A stretch of DNA of 64,000 nucleotides, from NCBI GenBank assembly GCA_963817895.1, contig CAWFQB010000001.1, positions 416,001 through 480,000 on the forward strand, given 5' to 3'. Made by a program: the position numbers. Below are positions 36,001 through 48,000 of this stretch, one piece after another; the stretch's first letter is position 1; each line of letters starts with the position of its first letter. Source of the DNA: an uncultured Chthonomonadaceae bacterium. GTDB taxonomy: Bacteria; Armatimonadota; Chthonomonadetes; Chthonomonadales; Chthonomonadaceae.

Positions 36001-39000
36001 TTGCTTCAAGCGTTTGACGGAGTGCGTCGTCCTCTTTTACCATTTCATTTCAAAGGCTATGGGGAAGATTTTGTGAGGGCGAAGCAGGCAGTTGCCGCCA
36101 GAACGTCATTGGAACACGCTTATCACACGTTATCACGCTCTGGTAGACAAAGAGTTTGAAAATGGATTAACGCCCGAAGAAGAAGCGGAGCAGGAGCGGC
36201 TTTCGGATGAAATTGACGCGCAGGAAGCGATGGACAACGAGACAATTCTGGCGCGTGTGCCGACAGGATTGAAATAGTGGAAAGGTGACTGTTCCGGTGT
36301 CCCGATTTCAGCGTACAACTCCTGCTCCCCTGCTTCCCGCTGGAAAAGATTATGCCTTTTTCCGTCCCGAAGTCCGCGCAGACTTCGAACGATGTTGCGC
36401 CCACTGCTTGCGCCATGAAGATTGGGGTGGCACGACAGAACATTATGAGTTAGATCACTTCCGACCCCAAAAACCTTTTGACAACCTTATAAACGACTTC
36501 CTCAATCTGTATTACGCATGTCACCGCTGCAATCAGCGTAAATCTAACACTTGGCCCAGGGAGCAAGAACAGCGTACTGGCAAATACATCGTAGATTTAT
36601 GTCGTGATGATTTCAACACACACTACAATTTCTTACCTGATGGCACTCTGGAACTGCTCACAGAAGCAGCAAAGTACACTGAAAAGAAGTTAAAACTCAA
36701 CAGCCCTGAACTTGTGCGACAACGCGCCAACATCTTGAGAGAAGGTTATGAAATTGACAAACCTTTCTGGCCCACAGAATAAGTCACATGACAACGAAAC
36801 TGAACTATTTATGCAGGTTCAGTACAGAGGCTGCAAGCGTTGTGAAGACTACTTGCCTGCTTGCTTTGCCTGTTTGCGGTAGTCGCGCATGGAAATCAGT
36901 TGGAGGTACGCGCCCACCACCATAATCAGGAAGGACAACAGGAAGGTATTTTGCGCGCCCTCGCGACGCAGCAGGGGTATGGCGAACTGGGGGGCGATGG
37001 TTCCCCGGATGCCGAAGAAACTGGAATGGAGCGCCTGATACTGCGCCGCTTTGCCGGGTTCCGCGAACATCAGCGTAGTGTTCAGATACCCTAAATCTAT
37101 GCCGGACATGCACAGCCCGCTCGCGATTGCCGCCAGATACAGCGCGGACATGCCCCACGCGCCCGCGTACAGCAGAGGAATTAGCAGATTGATGCTGATG
37201 GCGGCCAGCACGGTTGCCAGCGACCCTTTGCGATCCAGAAACGTTCCCCAGAACACATACCCTACAATCGTCATAATGGACGCGATGTTTTGCAGGTTGG
37301 CGACCTGCGTGTTCGTGACGTGAAACGTGTCCACCTGCTGAATGGGTATCAGCGTCGCGGAAATGAGATTCCCAAAGCCCGAAATAAATACCGAGGCCGT
37401 GAACCAGCGAAAGCCGGGATTGCGCTTGAGAATATGTATCGTATCGCGGACAAACGCGCCTGCCGTAGCCGGGTTGTCTTCAACGGCTACGGCTTGCAGG
37501 CGAATCCGGCTGAACGTGTACGCGCTCAACACGCCGAACGCGCCCCCGATGCAAAAACCGGTTCGCCAGTTAATGCCGTGATCCAGCAGCCGCCCCATGA
37601 CCAGCGCGGTCAGCAGCGTTGTCAGGCTCATGCCCATGCGGACAATGCTCATCAAACGTCCCCGGTGCGCGTCGGGATAAATCTCCTTCATAATCGCTGT
37701 GTACGCGGGCGTGGAAATGGAAAACACGAGCGGCGTGACGCAGACCAGCATCACATACTGTTCGCGGGTATGCAAAAATGGCGCGAGCAGAAACAGGCCG
37801 CGCGCGATGAGCCATGTCCACGTCACGAAGGGCATCTTGGAGCGGCCCTCCATCTGCCGCGCCCACAGCGTGGCGAAGATGTAGCCCAGCGCGGGCGCAG
37901 CCGTAATCCAGCCCATCTGCCCCCGCGTGGCATGGAGTTCCGCGCGGGCGATGCGCAGCACGAACGTCCAGATGCAGCCCTGATAAATGCCCGCGCATAG
38001 CCCGGTCGCCATGTCCCATTGCCAGGCAACGCGGGTTTGGGCAGGCAGGGTGAGCAGAAAATGGCGAACGCGGACGATAAAATTAGCGATCACAATGGTA
38101 AGTCTCGTAGCGGAAGTGGAGCAGGGAGATATAGTTTGAGCGCGCGACATTCAAATCAGCGCTATGTTCAAAGTATACCCTACGTGGTAGGTCGGCGCGG
38201 ATGGCGAGCCACTTTTCCGGCAAGAAAACGCTCCACATCCCACTGCGGCGGAACGGAACCTACAAATCCTCATACACGATTTCGATACGGCGGTTTTGCG
38301 CCTTGTCATTGCCCTGCGCGGGAACGCTGTCCGCATAGCCAATCGCTTCGATCAGCACATGGCCTCGTCCCGAACCGATAAAAACGCCCCTCTTGTTCAG
38401 TTCTATCTTAATTTGCTTGGCGAGCCAACAGGCGCGGGCGGCGGAAAGCTCCCAGTTGGAATCGAACTTGTATGTATGCACAGTATCGCTGTCCGTATGC
38501 CCCTCCACGCGGATACGGTTGAAAACAATTACTTTTTTCTTATCGTCATAGCATTTAGAACATATATCTTTCGCTATCGCCTCGCCCTGCGATTTATTTA
38601 TCGGCTCCTCGGCCCCCGTATTAAAGTGCAGTTCTTTTTCGCCGATTGTGCGCCGTATTTGCGGATTTAGCAGGCGATCTTGTACGTAAGACCCGAGATC
38701 GTCCCACATCTTACTGCGGTGCTGTTCCAGCATCTGCTTGAATTCTTCTGTAACCGGTCCATCGTTGTTTTTCACCAACCGGCAAACGTCGGCAAGCGGC
38801 AGGTCATCGTCGGGAGGCAGTTGGTTCACGCTGTCATACACGCGCGCGTGTTCGCCACCCGGTTTCTGGCGGATTTGCAGATTGTGCAGCATCAGCAATT
38901 CGTTGCGGCGGCGCGTCATATCATAATCGGCGCGGGCGTGGGGCTGACGCAGGGCAAACGCGGCCAGCAGCAGCAATACGAGCGCGAGCATGAGATCGAA

Positions 39001-45000: not shown

Positions 45001-48000
45001 AAGTGGTTTGTCCATAAGAACTGCGCGCCGGGCTGCGCTTCCACGCGCAACACGCGGTTTGTCTCGAAGGCCAGCGTTGCCAGCGTAAGCGCCTCCGGCA
45101 TGTCGGGCGCGTTTCCGCCCTGTAATCCGCCGCTTCCGCTTCCCGCGTTTATCACGCCGGAACTCGCCGTGCCTGTTGCGCCTGGCGCGGCGTCAGGGGC
45201 GGGAAGAAGGGCGACAAGAACGGTTTTACCCTCTTTCCCGCGCTGCAATGTCCAGCGGCTTTGCAGCGTTAAAGGCGTCAGGATTTGCGCCGTATCCGTG
45301 CCGATAGTAACTGTCAGGCTGCCGGGAATGGGAACCGAGGGGGGGCGAGCGGCGGGGCTTTTTCCGGCGCGTTTTTGGGGGGCGCGGGTTTGGGCTTGCG
45401 CGGACGAAGCAGCAGACCGGCAATCAGGGCAAGCGCAATCAGCCCGATAATAATCCAGACCCAACCGGGCATACCGGGCGAAGGCGCATTATCATTAGTC
45501 CCATGCGGCGGCTTTGGCGGCTCCTCGCGTTTGAGGGGCTGTGCGGGGTTCACCAGCGTCTCGTTGTTACCGGGCATATCCGTTTTCGGCTGCCATGTTT
45601 CGCGGGCGAAAGTGGGATAGCGCTGGGATGTGGGCGCGTCCGGCATCGCAGTTAATTTTTGCGGAAACAGAGCCGTAACGGCGACGGTGATCGGCTGCGC
45701 CCCGGCAGACAGGGTAAATTCCCTGCGGGCCAGCGGCTGCCGAAACCCGCCCTGCGCAATCGCGGCGGCAAGTTTCGGATTGTCGGCTCCGAATAACTGC
45801 GCCTGCTCGCCCGTAGGAGCCTGACTGGCGTTGCTGTTGGTCAGCAGCAGCACAATCGCGCTGTGGGTTTCCCCGGCGGGGATGGTTTTGGTAATGGCCT
45901 CGTAAAGAACCTGTTCGATGTCATGCCCGCCCCTGCTGCCGGCATGGGGCGCGTAGGGGACGCCGTTGACGAAATCCGCGCGACTGGCGGAATCATCGGT
46001 CAGCGTCGTCGTTTTGCCGACGTTCCAGGTACTCATCTCCCAGGCAAAAGGCGTCACCTGGTCGCCGACAGCAAGCGAATTGTTCATCAAGCTGAACGCC
46101 AGCCGCCGCATCGCAATGGCGTGAACCGGGTACTGGCCGAAATGCCCGGTGGAAAAGCCGATGTAAAAGTGGTAACGCGCCGCGTTCCAATTGCCGCCGC
46201 TTGCCGCCGCTTCCTGCTTCAGCCAGGCGTCTATTTCGGCGCGCGGAACCCGGGTGATGCGCCCGTAGTCCTGCGTATCCGGCGTCTGCGCGGAACCCGG
46301 AATTTGCGCCGCGCCCCAAAACAGCAGGCACAGGAGAACCGCCCATCCGCGCAAAGCGGCCGGGCCTCGACAAACATTCCGCTGCCAGATACTTCCGGAG
46401 AGTTTCCTTTGAAACACGTACATCTGCGCCCTCCTCACCTAAAATTTCCTCAAACGCGCCGTGATGCCCCGTCTTTAGACGTGGGTGTCCTTCCCTGCGG
46501 GTGGACGCCCAGGCGGGTTTCCTTTTGAGACTTGCGGTATCAGCCGCAATGTCGTCTAAACCTCCAGGTTAGGTATTGTTATGGTACTTATATACCTGCG
46601 TGTACCAAATCGCTTTCCGCTTTTGCCCGTCCGTTTGTAGTAAAAATAGCATCAGGCGCATACTAATTACTCATCAGGACGGTCAATTTCTTCATGGAAA
46701 ACTCACTCCCACAAACTTTAGTTGAAGCCATTCGCTATTATAGCGACCTTGACATTTGCCGCAACCTGCTTGCTTCTATGCGCTGGCCTGACGGCGTAAT
46801 CTGCCCCTACTGCCAGAACAACGGCGCGAACTTCCTGCCCTCATGCAGTAAGTGGAAATGTAAGTCCTGCCGCAAAGTTTTCTCCGTTAAAGTCGGCACA
46901 ATCTTTGAAGAATCCCCGCTCGGACTAGACAAATGGTTCGCCGCTATGTGGCTGGTTGCGAACGCAAAGAACGGCATTTCCTCTTGCGAAGTTGCTAGAG
47001 CCATCGGCGTTACGCAAAAATCGGCATGGTTTATGCTGCACAGAATTCGTCATGCTATGAAAACAGGTTCTCTTGACAAGTTTGACGGCACAATCGAAAC
47101 CGATGAAACCTTTGTCGGCGGATTAGAGAAGAACAAGCATAAAGACAAGAAATTGAAAGCAGGGCGCGGTTCTGTCGGCAAAACGATTGTTATGGGCGTG
47201 TTAGAACGCGCAAAGACAGAGAAGGACATTAGCAAAATTCGTGTTGCGATTATCCCCAACACAACACAGGAAACCCTTCACGGCGTTATCAAACATAACG
47301 TGACGATTGGAGCCGAAGTTTTCACGGACGCGGCTAGAGGTTACAACGGTCTAAACGAAATGTTCAAACATGACTTTGTAGACCACGCCATTGAATACGT
47401 GAAGGGGCGTGTTCACACAAATTCGGTTGAAAACTTCTGGAATTTGCTTGACAGAGGTATTCACGGAACCTATATCCGCCCGTCTGCCCAACACCTGCTG
47501 CGCTACGTTGACGAACAAGCGTTCCACTTCAATCACCGGAACGGTACAGACTTGACGCGGTTTCTGCAAACCATACAGCAGATTAGCGGTAAACGCCTGA
47601 CGTATGATGAACTGACACAAGCGCATTTGCAGAACTTGGCTCCAAAATAAAATGAGATATTTTCTGAAAGAGCATCTAATTAAGCAGGATGCTCTTTCCT
47701 CTTTGTGGAATCATCCGAATAGTAGAATAGTAATCTAGTATACTGGTGTTTCTGATACTCTCTTGACAAGTAGACAGAATTAGTATAAGATAGTAGACAG
47801 ATAGTTACTTATCTGTTGCACTGTTCTATGACTGCGGGGTAGATGGCGATTATGAATGAAGACAAACTTACAATAACGCTAACAGGGAAAAAGGAATTTA
47901 TTCCTTATAAATCGTTCTTGTCTGCTGTAGACAATACGATTGCCTTGCTTCGTGATTTAGATTCATCCATATCAGGCCGTAGTTCTGGCTCTGTTGAATG

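What a model noticed while it worked through the whole genome (the two positions that open the first line are those of the whole stretch)
38260..46423. Tubulin-like giant protein operon coupled to a ZorA/ZorB-like motor
One operon encodes a membrane-anchored vWA-like protein (g00479), a ~1,080-aa Tubulin_2 protein with C-terminal zinc ribbon (g00478+g00477), and ZorA-like and ZorB-like proteins (g00476, g00475) without zorC/D/E. The same order recurs in Armatimonadota and Deinococcus: a candidate defence system joining a Zorya-type motor to a tubulin.
Evidence so far: Pfam Tubulin_2 E 4e-32, OmpA on g00475; PADLOC ZorB1 E 1e-16 and ZorA3 E 1e-5. Tubulin is one ORF of 1,071-1,111 aa in 11 of 12 relatives. 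A ZorA-like gene directly follows the tubulin in 7 of 22 loci examined (several cut by contig ends), ZorB-like in 5 of those, including a Deinococcus bin; also in distant G233; PADLOC confirms ZorB in 3 of 4 and ZorA in 1 of 2 tested. g00479 model pLDDT 88 superposes on the CLCA1 vWA domain at rmsd 2.9, E 0.018. PMC7159879 has tubulin-vWA systems but no Zorya or MotB; search 166 no report.
(Added by a program. Inside this text positions count along the whole contig: contig position 416,001 is position 1 of the stretch shown here. "Call 12" and the like, gene names such as g00115 and contig names such as C1 are that model's own, and its searches are not shown. The text may have been shortened before it was handed on; [...] marks where a part breaks off. 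The agent that wrote the report below was given it as the finding of a first reader that could run no searches.)

Follow-up and report, generated by a model that had tools for sequence, protein, structure and literature searches.

The report
Tubulin operon with Zorya-type motor
These genes encode a giant tubulin-like protein next to a cell-wall-anchored ion motor of the kind that Zorya anti-phage systems use as a sensor; the gene cluster was tabulated in 2010 but never tested, and the copy in this genome is damaged.

Summary
The four genes are real and the link is more than chance: vWA > tubulin > ZorA-like > ZorB-like recurs in Armatimonadota, Deinococcota (17 of 22 tubulin loci) and cyanobacteria (16 of 30). 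It is not a first report: the tubulin is FtsZl1 (Makarova and Koonin 2010, PMC2875224), whose supplement lists this order in Anabaena and Deinococcus, with the motor genes called 'B7' or 'MotA/TolQ/ExbB' and 'OmpA/flagellar motor protein'. What I did not find in print is that the pair is ZorAB-type: best PDB match E. coli ZorA (E 2e-20), conserved proton-relay Asp (40 of 41) and TM2 Thr (40 of 42), 330-580-residue tail. AlphaFold gives a complete tubulin fold split by a ~400-residue helical arm. Defence is the best guess (about 0.45): the same motor clade pairs with a NERD/UvrD nuclease-helicase where tubulin is absent (3 of 3 in Deinococcota), but flanking genes show no defence-island enrichment. 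New variant of a known kind; testable in D. radiodurans and Anabaena.

The parts
49530..50673 (-). 5' remnant (about residues 1-400 of ~830) of the operon's first gene: N-terminal zinc ribbon, beta-rich region, Hsp70-type ATPase domain; cut by the IS element
   Evidence: tblastn 54% over residues 10-402 of the G199 protein; profile positions 5-383 of 813; family profile matches DnaK structures at E 1e-40 with invariant nucleotide-binding residues
46583..49529 (.). IS1595-family element with perfect 26-nt inverted repeats, transposase (46694-47650, +), passenger gene (47843-48634, +) and PIN-domain gene (48585-49115, +); sits where relatives have the rest of the Hsp70-like gene, a GrpE-like gene and a zinc-ribbon/beta-rich gene
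   Evidence: inverted repeats; Pfam DDE_Tnp_IS1595, PIN; single copy, flanks not duplicated; missing genes not found by tblastn or HMM in G000
44730..46423 (-). vWA-like single-pass membrane protein: N-terminal hydrophobic signal-like stretch, degenerate vWA domain, Pro-rich linker, one TM helix, C-terminal beta-rich (FHA-like, weak) domain; one frameshift near 45350
   Evidence: ORF and frames; TM at 326-344; family alignment incl. a cyanobacterial member; C-terminal domain of a relative matches clusters named vWA proteins of Armatimonadota and cyanobacteria by structure, TM 0.52-0.62, FHA rows 0.48-0.52
44888..45018 (.). MITE-like repeat with terminal inverted repeats inserted in the 3' part of the vWA gene, bringing an in-frame stop
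   Evidence: 8 full-length copies at >=95% in G000; hairpin ends; a contig of run X2 skips 44888-45015; absent from relatives' proteins
41435..44723 (-). FtsZl1 (Tubulin_2) GTPase, ~1,080 aa when intact: GTPase domain, C-terminal tubulin domain split by a ~400-residue helical insertion, helical domain, terminal zinc ribbon; four frame breaks in this assembly
   Evidence: Pfam PF13809 112 bits vs cut-off 27; breaks; model of the G199 orthologue pLDDT 88, pTM 0.76; whole-chain match to CetZ2, Z 24.5, rmsd 4.2, 312 of 334 residues, model range 11-851
39104..41434 (-). ZorA-like motor subunit, 776 aa: membrane part with the TM2 threonine (T155) and a ~576-residue cytoplasmic helical tail; ORF intact
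38260..39099 (-). ZorB/MotB-like subunit: one TM helix with the conserved Asp, periplasmic OmpA-type peptidoglycan-binding domain; likely start is the ATG at 39054 behind a ribosome-binding site; ORF intact

Best explanation
This is a decayed copy of an FtsZl1 operon that carries a ZorAB-type 5:2 ion motor. In intact relatives the most likely working is: the ZorB-like dimer anchors to peptidoglycan when the envelope is pushed in or breached (as on phage penetration); ion flow past its Asp turns the ZorA-like pentamer and its long cytoplasmic tail; the tail recruits or activates FtsZl1, which is held near the membrane by the vWA-TM protein and polymerises with GTP, its helical arms projecting from the filament, to make a local scaffold that contains the incoming DNA, seals the site or arrests the cell; the private Hsp70/GrpE pair, where present, loads or resets the assembly. 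Shown: gene linkage, family identities, conserved motor and GTP-binding residues, predicted fold, decay of this copy. Inferred: 5:2 assembly, rotation, filament formation, every protein contact, and the anti-phage role.
For: ZorA-like profile ranks E. coli ZorA first among 177,635 PDB sequences (E 2e-20; motor-only construct 3e-11; Shewanella-type 8VVN 3.5e-8; TolQ 3e-5), aligning T147 with the family's TM2 Thr; Asp in 40 of 41 B subunits, Thr in 40 of 42 A subunits, Thr/Ser at the S184 column in 33 of 42; these are the residues that bioRxiv 10.1101/2023.12.18.572097 names as needed for defence (passages); tails of 331-577 residues in 17 of 17 aligned. Linkage in sampled genomes: 17 of 22 tubulin places in 101 Deinococcota genomes, 16 of 30 in 151 cyanobacterial genomes; 17 of the 20 strongest Deinococcota ZorA-like hits lie beside the tubulin, and the other 3 of 3 lie beside a NERD/UvrD nuclease-helicase that PADLOC scores at E <= 7e-74. 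The pair keeps its link while changing place in the operon. Patchy spread (69 of 301 genomes of the phylum, 3 of 17 in the family, absent from the one same-genus genome), 11 gains/losses of ZorAB on a 64-tip tree with Deinococcota tips nested among Armatimonadota (FastTree only), 9 plasmid records. Hsp70/GrpE and tubulin/vWA modules are themes of predicted conflict systems in PMC7159879 (sections 27-29). GTP-binding glycines in 85-87 of 87 tubulins and Asp/Asn at the H8 position in 84 of 87.
Against: No defence-island signal: PADLOC hits (E <= 1e-10) in 13 of 145 flanking proteins against 3 of 95 control proteins (p 0.11); 9 of 141 after removing four operon kinases (p 0.37); 8 of 34 against 3 of 19 loci (p 0.73); one of the nine is a CRP-type regulator by Pfam. 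Cyanobacterial loci sit among housekeeping genes and carry no nuclease or toxin domain. More than half of well-flanked tubulin loci have no ZorAB (30 of 54), so the motor is dispensable for the tubulin, and several cyanobacterial ZorA(B)-like genes stand with no tubulin or evident effector (7 loci). The window's own ZorA has Gly at the S184 column (7 of 42), has no NCBIfam match at E <= 0.01, and the B profile matches MotB/MotS better than ZorB in the PDB. Tail lengths vary widely, down to 412-residue whole proteins in Deinococcus, whereas the Zorya preprint reports uniform tails per subtype.
Confidence: 0.45

Rival explanations
1. Envelope remodelling or envelope-stress machine with no role against phages (Makarova and Koonin's reading, updated): the peptidoglycan-anchored motor supplies energy or a tension signal to an FtsZl1 scaffold that bends, repairs or buds the inner membrane.
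For: Housekeeping neighbourhoods and stable four-gene order in cyanobacteria; no enrichment of defence genes; no toxic effector domain in the core; complete tubulin fold with long helical arm; PMC2875224 proposes this role.
Against: Sporadic presence, repeated loss and apparent transfer; IS-driven decay here; the same motor clade pairs with a nuclease-helicase in Deinococcota; the long-tailed motor type is, to my knowledge (recalled), characterised only in Zorya. The helical arm matched no dynamin-, ESCRT-III- or BAR-type fold above background.
Confidence: 0.33
2. ZorAB is an independent, self-sufficient module (for example a depolarising channel or a sensor working with effectors encoded elsewhere) that merely clusters with the FtsZl1 operon; the two do not act on each other.
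For: 30 of 54 well-flanked tubulin loci lack it; orphan ZorAB-like pairs in cyanobacteria; in G050 the pair is on the opposite strand.
Against: Zero-gap junction between tubulin stop and ZorA start; same order across three phyla and since the 2010 table; 17 of 17 Deinococcota tubulin places outside the 907-960-residue subtype have it, 0 of 5 of that short subtype; link kept under gene reshuffling.
Confidence: 0.12
3. Adhesion or surface-motility machine: motor, cytoskeletal track (FtsZl1) and an outward-facing vWA adhesin, by analogy with motor-coupled vWA force transducers and gliding systems.
For: Outward vWA domain on a Pro-rich stalk with one TM helix; PMC12204202 describes vWA proteins coupled to 5:2 motors (passages).
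Against: The vWA TM helix here shows neither the conserved His/SHLS motif nor the Asp described for those transducers (alignment); the B subunit has its own peptidoglycan-binding domain and the A subunit's extension points into the cytoplasm; no outer-membrane partner is conserved in the operon.
Confidence: 0.1

Closest known systems
FtsZl1 system (Makarova and Koonin 2010, PMC2875224; Pfam PF13809), e.g. Anabaena variabilis Ava_1847-1850 and Deinococcus radiodurans DR_0540-DR_0534
   Same: Same ~1,050-1,130-aa tubulin with coiled-coil and helical C-terminal parts; same order vWA > FtsZl1 > membrane protein (B7 or 'MotA/TolQ/ExbB') > COG1360/OmpA protein in supplementary file 5; DnaK and GrpE also appear once each in that table.
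   Different: The paper read the OmpA proteins as beta-barrel porins and B7 as uncharacterised, and found no tubulin C-terminal domain; here they are a ZorAB-type motor and the C-terminal domain is present but split. The Armatimonadota version adds a regular Hsp70-like/GrpE-like/zinc-ribbon module and lacks the P-loop GTPase of Firmicutes/actinobacterial versions.
Zorya anti-phage systems types I-III (EcZorAB, PDB 8QYD; bioRxiv 10.1101/2023.12.18.572097)
   Same: ZorA-type membrane domain with TM2 Thr and long helical tail; ZorB-type TM Asp plus peptidoglycan-binding domain; adjacent A-B genes.
   Different: No ZorC/D/E/F/G match among the operon's genes; partners are a tubulin, a vWA membrane protein and optional Hsp70/GrpE; distant sequence (far below curated cut-offs); variable tail length; common in Deinococcota, cyanobacteria and Armatimonadota.
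GAP1-N2 DO-GTPase conflict systems (Kaur et al. 2020, PMC7159879)
   Same: Tubulin plus vWA theme and Hsp70 plus GrpE theme, zinc ribbons, membrane proximity.
   Different: No DO-GTPase, GAP1 or FNIII gene recognised here; the two themes are described there as non-overlapping but are joined here; that paper has no ZorAB/MotAB component.
CetZ / FtsZ / TubZ / PhuZ tubulin-family GTPases (PDB 4B45, 3ZID, 2VAW, 4XCQ)
   Same: Whole two-domain fold superposes on the model (Z 21-24.5).
   Different: ~400-residue helical insertion after strand S7, further helical domain and terminal zinc ribbon.

Membership tests
FtsZl1 (Tubulin_2, PF13809) | N-terminal FtsZ-like domain with the GTP-binding signature loop | tested here: met
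   PF13809 112 bits, cut-off 27; signature glycines/threonine in 85-87 of 87 sequences
FtsZl1 (Tubulin_2, PF13809) | ~1,050-1,130 aa with extended coiled coil and mostly helical C-terminal part | tested here: met
   1,069-1,111 codons in 11 of 11 close relatives; model secondary structure; the window copy itself is in five frames-pieces
FtsZl1 (Tubulin_2, PF13809) | Operon with a vWA protein, in some lineages B7 and an OmpA/COG1360 protein | tested here: met
   identity of the ZorA-like family with B7 is inferred from position and size in cyanobacteria, Ava_1849 itself was not fetched
FtsZl1 (Tubulin_2, PF13809) | GTP hydrolysis and filament formation | not testable with these tools
   needs biochemistry; untested in the 2010 paper too
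Zorya (types I-III) | ZorA: MotA-like membrane domain with TM2 Thr and TM3 Ser/Thr | tested here: met
   TM2 Thr 40 of 42; TM3 column Thr/Ser 33 of 42; the window protein has the Thr but Gly in the TM3 column, with Ser next to it; profile alignment to 8QYD
Zorya (types I-III) | ZorA long cytoplasmic helical tail | tested here: met
   331-577 residues after TM3 in 17 of 17 aligned proteins; helical nature inferred from coiled-coil-type matches, not folded here
Zorya (types I-III) | ZorB: TM Asp and OmpA-type peptidoglycan-binding domain | tested here: met
   Asp 40 of 41; Pfam OmpA in 10 of 11 aligned members counting the window; PADLOC ZorB1 E 1e-16; not specific against MotB
Zorya (types I-III) | Soluble partners ZorC+ZorD, ZorE or ZorF+ZorG in the operon | tested here: not met
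   no PADLOC match for the other operon genes of the window and no Zor effector among 145 flanking proteins of 34 loci; the genome-wide EH-signature search was silent in the controls too and decides nothing
Zorya (types I-III) | Ca2+ site (E86/E89) of the membrane-proximal domain | tested here: inconclusive
   falls in a poorly aligned, unconserved stretch of the profile alignment
Zorya (types I-III) | 5:2 stoichiometry and ion-driven rotation | not tested
Zorya (types I-III) | Protection against phages | not testable with these tools
   needs plating assays
GAP1-N2 DO-GTPase systems (PMC7159879) | DO-GTPase, GAP1 and FNIII-repeat genes | tested here: inconclusive
   no such domain called by Pfam among the operon genes scanned and every conserved gene has another assignment, but I had no profiles for DO-GTPase or GAP1
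Hsp70 family (upstream gene) | Actin/Hsp70 nucleotide-binding domain with phosphate-1, phosphate-2, catalytic Lys/Glu and adenosine motifs | tested here: met
   invariant D268, G270, K340, E436, D465, G467, G469, T470, D472, G662 in 16 relatives (motif names recalled); DnaK structures E 1e-40; only the first part survives in the window

The most novel reading that the evidence does not exclude
A nuclease-free Zorya-type immune system in which the rotating ZorA tail directly nucleates a filament of a split-fold tubulin at the site of phage entry, and in which the motor is a swappable sensor that pairs either with a nuclease-helicase or with a cytoskeletal effector; this would give FtsZl1 its first function and make a tubulin an immune effector.
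Probability: 0.3. Interest if true: 0.85.

Novelty: new variant of a known kind. Interest (0 to 1): 0.55.

Why it matters
FtsZl1 has had no tested function since it was described in 2010, and every characterised long-tailed ZorAB motor that I know of (recalled) works with nucleic-acid-targeting partners. Reading the old 'B7 + OmpA' pair as a ZorAB-type motor gives specific residues to mutate (ZorB Asp, ZorA TM2 Thr, FtsZl1 GTP loop and H8 Asp) and places the intact four-gene core in genetically tractable, harmless hosts (D. radiodurans, Anabaena). Either outcome is informative: a tubulin as an anti-phage effector, or the first non-defence job of a ZorAB-type motor. The window's copy is a poor starting point because it is decayed; other agents of this scan have already flagged the same system in other genomes.

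Tried and rejected
Complex prediction of a Deinococcus FtsZl1 (residues 320-1068) with one copy of the ZorA tail (200-412), without alignments: no answer, score 0.00, partner fold uncertain; not used either way. Folding the helical insertion alone (pLDDT 91): no Foldseek match at E <= 0.001, the weak pore-forming-toxin rows have rmsd 30-43 and were rejected; VIA best Z 8.2, generic coiled coils. ESM Atlas for the zinc-ribbon protein: all hits under 0.9, PQQ-type beta-propellers are a lead only. 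vWA profile against PDB sequences: nothing useful. NCBIfam ZorA_4 in G000: no match. EH-signature (ZorC) in 5 genomes: none, controls silent too. No RNA holder listed for the stretch; the two DNA runs cover it only in pieces and do not cover the IS interior. Idea that the HNH gene at 36285-36782 is a ZorE-like effector: rejected, it is on the other strand beyond an MFS gene, resembles PtuB/RM-type HNH, and nothing like it follows ZorB in the relatives scanned. 'TIR' hit after ZorB in L175 is a CRP-type regulator. Careful IQ-TREE run did not finish; only FastTree was obtained, no clade test. First deduplication over-merged loci and was redone. Paper searches without a report joining Zorya and this tubulin: ZorA+ZorB+tubulin, 1 paper, listing only, not opened; ZorAB+Zorya+genomic context+novel, 4 listed; tubulin-like+vWA+MotB+defense system, 0; DR0536-DR0538, 0; Zorya+tubulin+FtsZ-like, 0; FtsZl1, 11 listed; PMC11890865 has no 'tubulin' or 'FtsZ' (term search only). 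The library lacks most subscription papers, and bioRxiv supplements were closed, so a mention there is not excluded.

Full report
1. What is in the window. Four co-oriented minus-strand genes lie at the stated place. The ZorA-like (39104-41434) and ZorB-like (38260-39099, likely start 39054) frames are intact, and the tubulin stop codon is followed at once by the ZorA-like start. The tubulin begins at 44723 and is broken at four places, near 44598, 42890, 42400 and 42170. These breaks are probably assembly errors at least in part: 2 of 21 unrelated genes compared with relatives were also split, two DnaK-like genes are in pieces, the genome is scored 81% complete, and a contig of a related strain lacks the two inner shifts. 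The density in the operon is nevertheless higher than that small background, so real decay is not excluded.

2. The copy is decayed for reasons that are not indel errors. An IS1595 element (46583-49529; perfect 26-nt inverted repeats, transposase, PIN passenger) is single-copy and shows no duplicated flanks. It cuts an upstream gene (50673-49530) at about residue 400. In relatives this gene is an ~830-residue Hsp70-like protein and is followed by a GrpE-like gene (Pfam GrpE E 7e-16 and 8e-11 in two relatives, weaker or absent in others) and a double-zinc-ribbon, beta-rich gene before the vWA gene. The rest of the Hsp70-like gene and those two genes were not found in G000 by tblastn or HMM; the only GrpE-like hit sits beside an ordinary-sized DnaK-like gene on another contig. 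A 131-bp repeat with 8 full-length copies in the genome interrupts the 3' end of the vWA gene with an in-frame stop and is skipped by a contig of run X2.

3. The linkage is real. The tubulin matched in 69 of 301 genomes of the phylum, in 3 of 17 of the family and not in the one same-genus genome. Over 102 distinct tubulin loci that I collected (not a random sample; profiles built from the same loci), 38 had a ZorA+ZorB-like pair; among the 54 with at least 7 kb upstream and 3.5 kb downstream, 24 did (19 of 33 in the nearer clade). In evenly drawn genome samples, 16 of 30 tubulin places in 151 cyanobacterial genomes and 17 of 22 in 101 Deinococcota genomes had a ZorA-like gene within 6 kb on the same strand (each sample includes its centre genome, whose ZorA was in the query alignment, as were four other Deinococcota proteins). 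The five Deinococcota exceptions are all of a 907-960-residue subtype. I fetched 10 of the 16 cyanobacterial loci: all 10 have vWA > tubulin > ZorA-like > ZorB-like, one with an extra gene before ZorB. The pair can also sit upstream of the Hsp70-like gene (G097, G144, G258), after it (G204) or at the head of the operon (Poribacteria). On a FastTree tree of 64 tubulins the ZorAB label changes 11 times and Deinococcota tips lie among Armatimonadota ones (no clade test). Nine plasmid records hold the tubulin, four Deinococcus ones nearly full length, and D. deserti plasmid 2 shows the full order.

4. It was described in 2010. PMC2875224 (Makarova and Koonin; I read parts 1-3 of 5 of the text, supplementary file 6 whole, part 1 of 4 of file 5 and two term searches in it) defines FtsZl1: an FtsZ-like domain, a long coiled coil and a helical C-terminal part, in operons with vWA proteins and sometimes OmpA-domain proteins. 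File 5 lists vWA > FtsZl1 > B7 > COG1360 'flagellar motor protein' in Anabaena variabilis and Cyanothece, and FtsZl1 > 'MotA/TolQ/ExbB membrane protein' > OmpA protein in D. radiodurans and D. deserti. The authors took the OmpA proteins for beta-barrel porins and proposed membrane remodelling; nothing was tested. PMC7159879 (passages and sections 27-29) describes tubulin+vWA and Hsp70+GrpE themes in DO-GTPase conflict systems, without a motor. My searches for a paper that joins Zorya with this tubulin found none (limits under Tried and rejected). Earlier notes of this scan, unchecked AI notes, report the same system in other genomes.

5. The motor is ZorAB-type. A profile of 17 A subunits ranks E. 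coli ZorA first in the PDB (8QYD, E 2e-20; the 280-residue motor construct E 3e-11; 8VVN E 3.5e-8; TolQ E 3e-5) and aligns T147 to the family's TM2 Thr. Thr is kept in 40 of 42 A subunits, Thr/Ser at the S184 column in 33 of 42 (Gly in 7, the window among them), and the TM Asp in 40 of 41 B subunits. These are the residues named in bioRxiv 10.1101/2023.12.18.572097 (passages) for ion flow and defence. Tails after TM3 are 331-577 residues in the 17 aligned. Against membership of Zorya proper: 4 of 17 members match NCBIfam ZorA_4, at best E 4e-10, and the window protein none (curated cut-off 500 bits); the B profile prefers MotB/MotS; no ZorC/D/E/F/G is in the operon. The profile finds 132 clusters at E <= 1e-30 among 1.84 billion representatives, so the family is sizeable.

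6. The tubulin has a complete but split fold. The AlphaFold model of the intact G199 orthologue (29 sequences; pLDDT 88, pTM 0.76) superposes on whole chains of CetZ2 (Z 24.5, rmsd 4.2, 312 of 334 residues, model range 11-851), FtsZ (Z 21.5, 8-821) and tubulins. From the order of elements I infer that strand S7 (325-334) is followed by a ~400-residue helical insertion and that H9-S10 resume at about 734-821; I could see ranges only, not the residue pairing. The GTP-binding glycines are kept in 85-87 of 87 sequences and an Asp (52) or Asn (32) at the position I assign to H8. This answers the 2010 remark that no tubulin C-terminal domain could be found, repeated in PMC9871819 (passages). After I had this result, a look-up showed that other agents had reached it for archaeal FtsZl1 proteins. 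The insertion alone folds confidently but matches only generic coiled coils. The Hsp70-like gene has a full nucleotide-binding domain. The vWA protein has a degenerate metal site in this clade and a cytoplasmic beta domain shared with cyanobacterial vWA proteins and weakly like FHA; kinases accompany some Deinococcus operons.

7. Defence or not. For: the motor type; patchy spread, repeated loss, plasmid copies; and in Deinococcota the 3 strong ZorA-like hits of 20 that are not beside the tubulin are all beside a NERD/UvrD nuclease-helicase (two directly downstream of ZorB, one convergent and one gene away), which PADLOC scores at E <= 7e-74, as if effectors were interchangeable. Against: PADLOC hits in 13 of 145 flanking proteins from 34 ZorAB loci versus 3 of 95 from 19 control regions (p 0.11), 9 of 141 without four operon kinases (p 0.37) (ORFs over 900 aa were left out, controls came from the Armatimonadota sample only, so the test is weak); cyanobacterial loci lie among housekeeping genes; seven cyanobacterial ZorA(B)-like loci have neither tubulin nor an evident effector; the core holds no toxic domain; the tubulin often occurs without the motor.

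8. Verdict. Real, known cluster with a new and better-supported reading of two of its parts. Best mechanism: a wall-anchored ZorAB-type sensor that triggers local assembly of FtsZl1, most likely against phages (0.45); envelope remodelling (0.33), independent modules (0.12) and adhesion/motility (0.10) remain. It works like Zorya at the sensor, is not a member of Zorya types I-III, and is a member of the FtsZl1 systems. Interest 0.55: surprising and testable, but tabulated before, untested, seen by other agents of this scan, and broken in this genome.

Noticed in passing
window 34024-36782 (+): A 711-aa DNA methyltransferase-like gene (MmeI/type I-IIG-like) followed by a 165-aa HNH gene (PtuB-like) lies just beyond the MFS gene downstream of the operon: a restriction-modification-like pair.
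   Followed up: partly
window 46583-49529: IS1595-family element carrying a PIN-domain gene and an unannotated 263-aa partner (toxin-antitoxin-like cargo), GC 45-49% against 57-61% around it; single copy, no target duplication.
   Followed up: partly
window 44888-45018: 131-bp MITE-like element with terminal inverted repeats; 8 full-length copies and over 100 partial matches in the genome.
   Followed up: partly
window 46483-46513: A ~30-bp palindromic repeat with about 27 other matches in the genome, between the IS end and the vWA start; resembles IS200/IS605-type ends (label recalled).
   Followed up: no
L233:7567-12254, L234:3664-8334, L235:7931-14867: Deinococcota ZorAB-like pairs of the same clade coupled to a NERD/UvrD nuclease-helicase instead of the tubulin: a possible undescribed Zorya subtype.
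   Followed up: partly
L228-L232, L236, L237: Cyanobacterial ZorA(B)-like genes among housekeeping genes with no tubulin or recognisable effector; in L229 and L232 the downstream ~240-aa gene did not match my ZorB profile.
   Followed up: partly
L100:8864-16051: ZorAB-like pair behind two protein-kinase genes in G012, with no tubulin in the stretch held; the contig ends a few kb upstream.
   Followed up: partly
L108:5490-12146: ZorA-like gene at the end of a run that starts with a TIR-domain gene, facing a TPR-S/cyclase gene.
   Followed up: no
L139:6528-15639: Three tandem FtsZl1 genes after Hsp70-like, zinc-ribbon and vWA genes in a rumen bacterium, without ZorAB.
   Followed up: no
L178, L182, L183, L185, L191, L193 (Poribacteria and kin): Ten-gene variant: ZorA > ZorB > two unannotated genes > small gene > FtsZl1 > Ig-like/Hsp70 > three or four unannotated genes.
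   Followed up: partly
alignment A1 (L043, L044, L045, L051, L052 C-termini): Several ZorA-like tails end in a Trp- and Arg/Lys-rich segment that looks like an amphipathic membrane-binding helix; not present in the window's clade (inference).
   Followed up: no
L149, L152, L153, L156, L164: Deinococcus operons continue after ZorB with an ~860-aa LRV-repeat protein and often a kinase/SH3/beta-helix protein.
   Followed up: partly
window 2001-6000: GC drops to 45% over about 4 kb; not examined.
   Followed up: no
G000 whole assembly: Several housekeeping genes are in pieces (two DnaK-like genes, others), so gene calls in this genome need care.
   Followed up: partly
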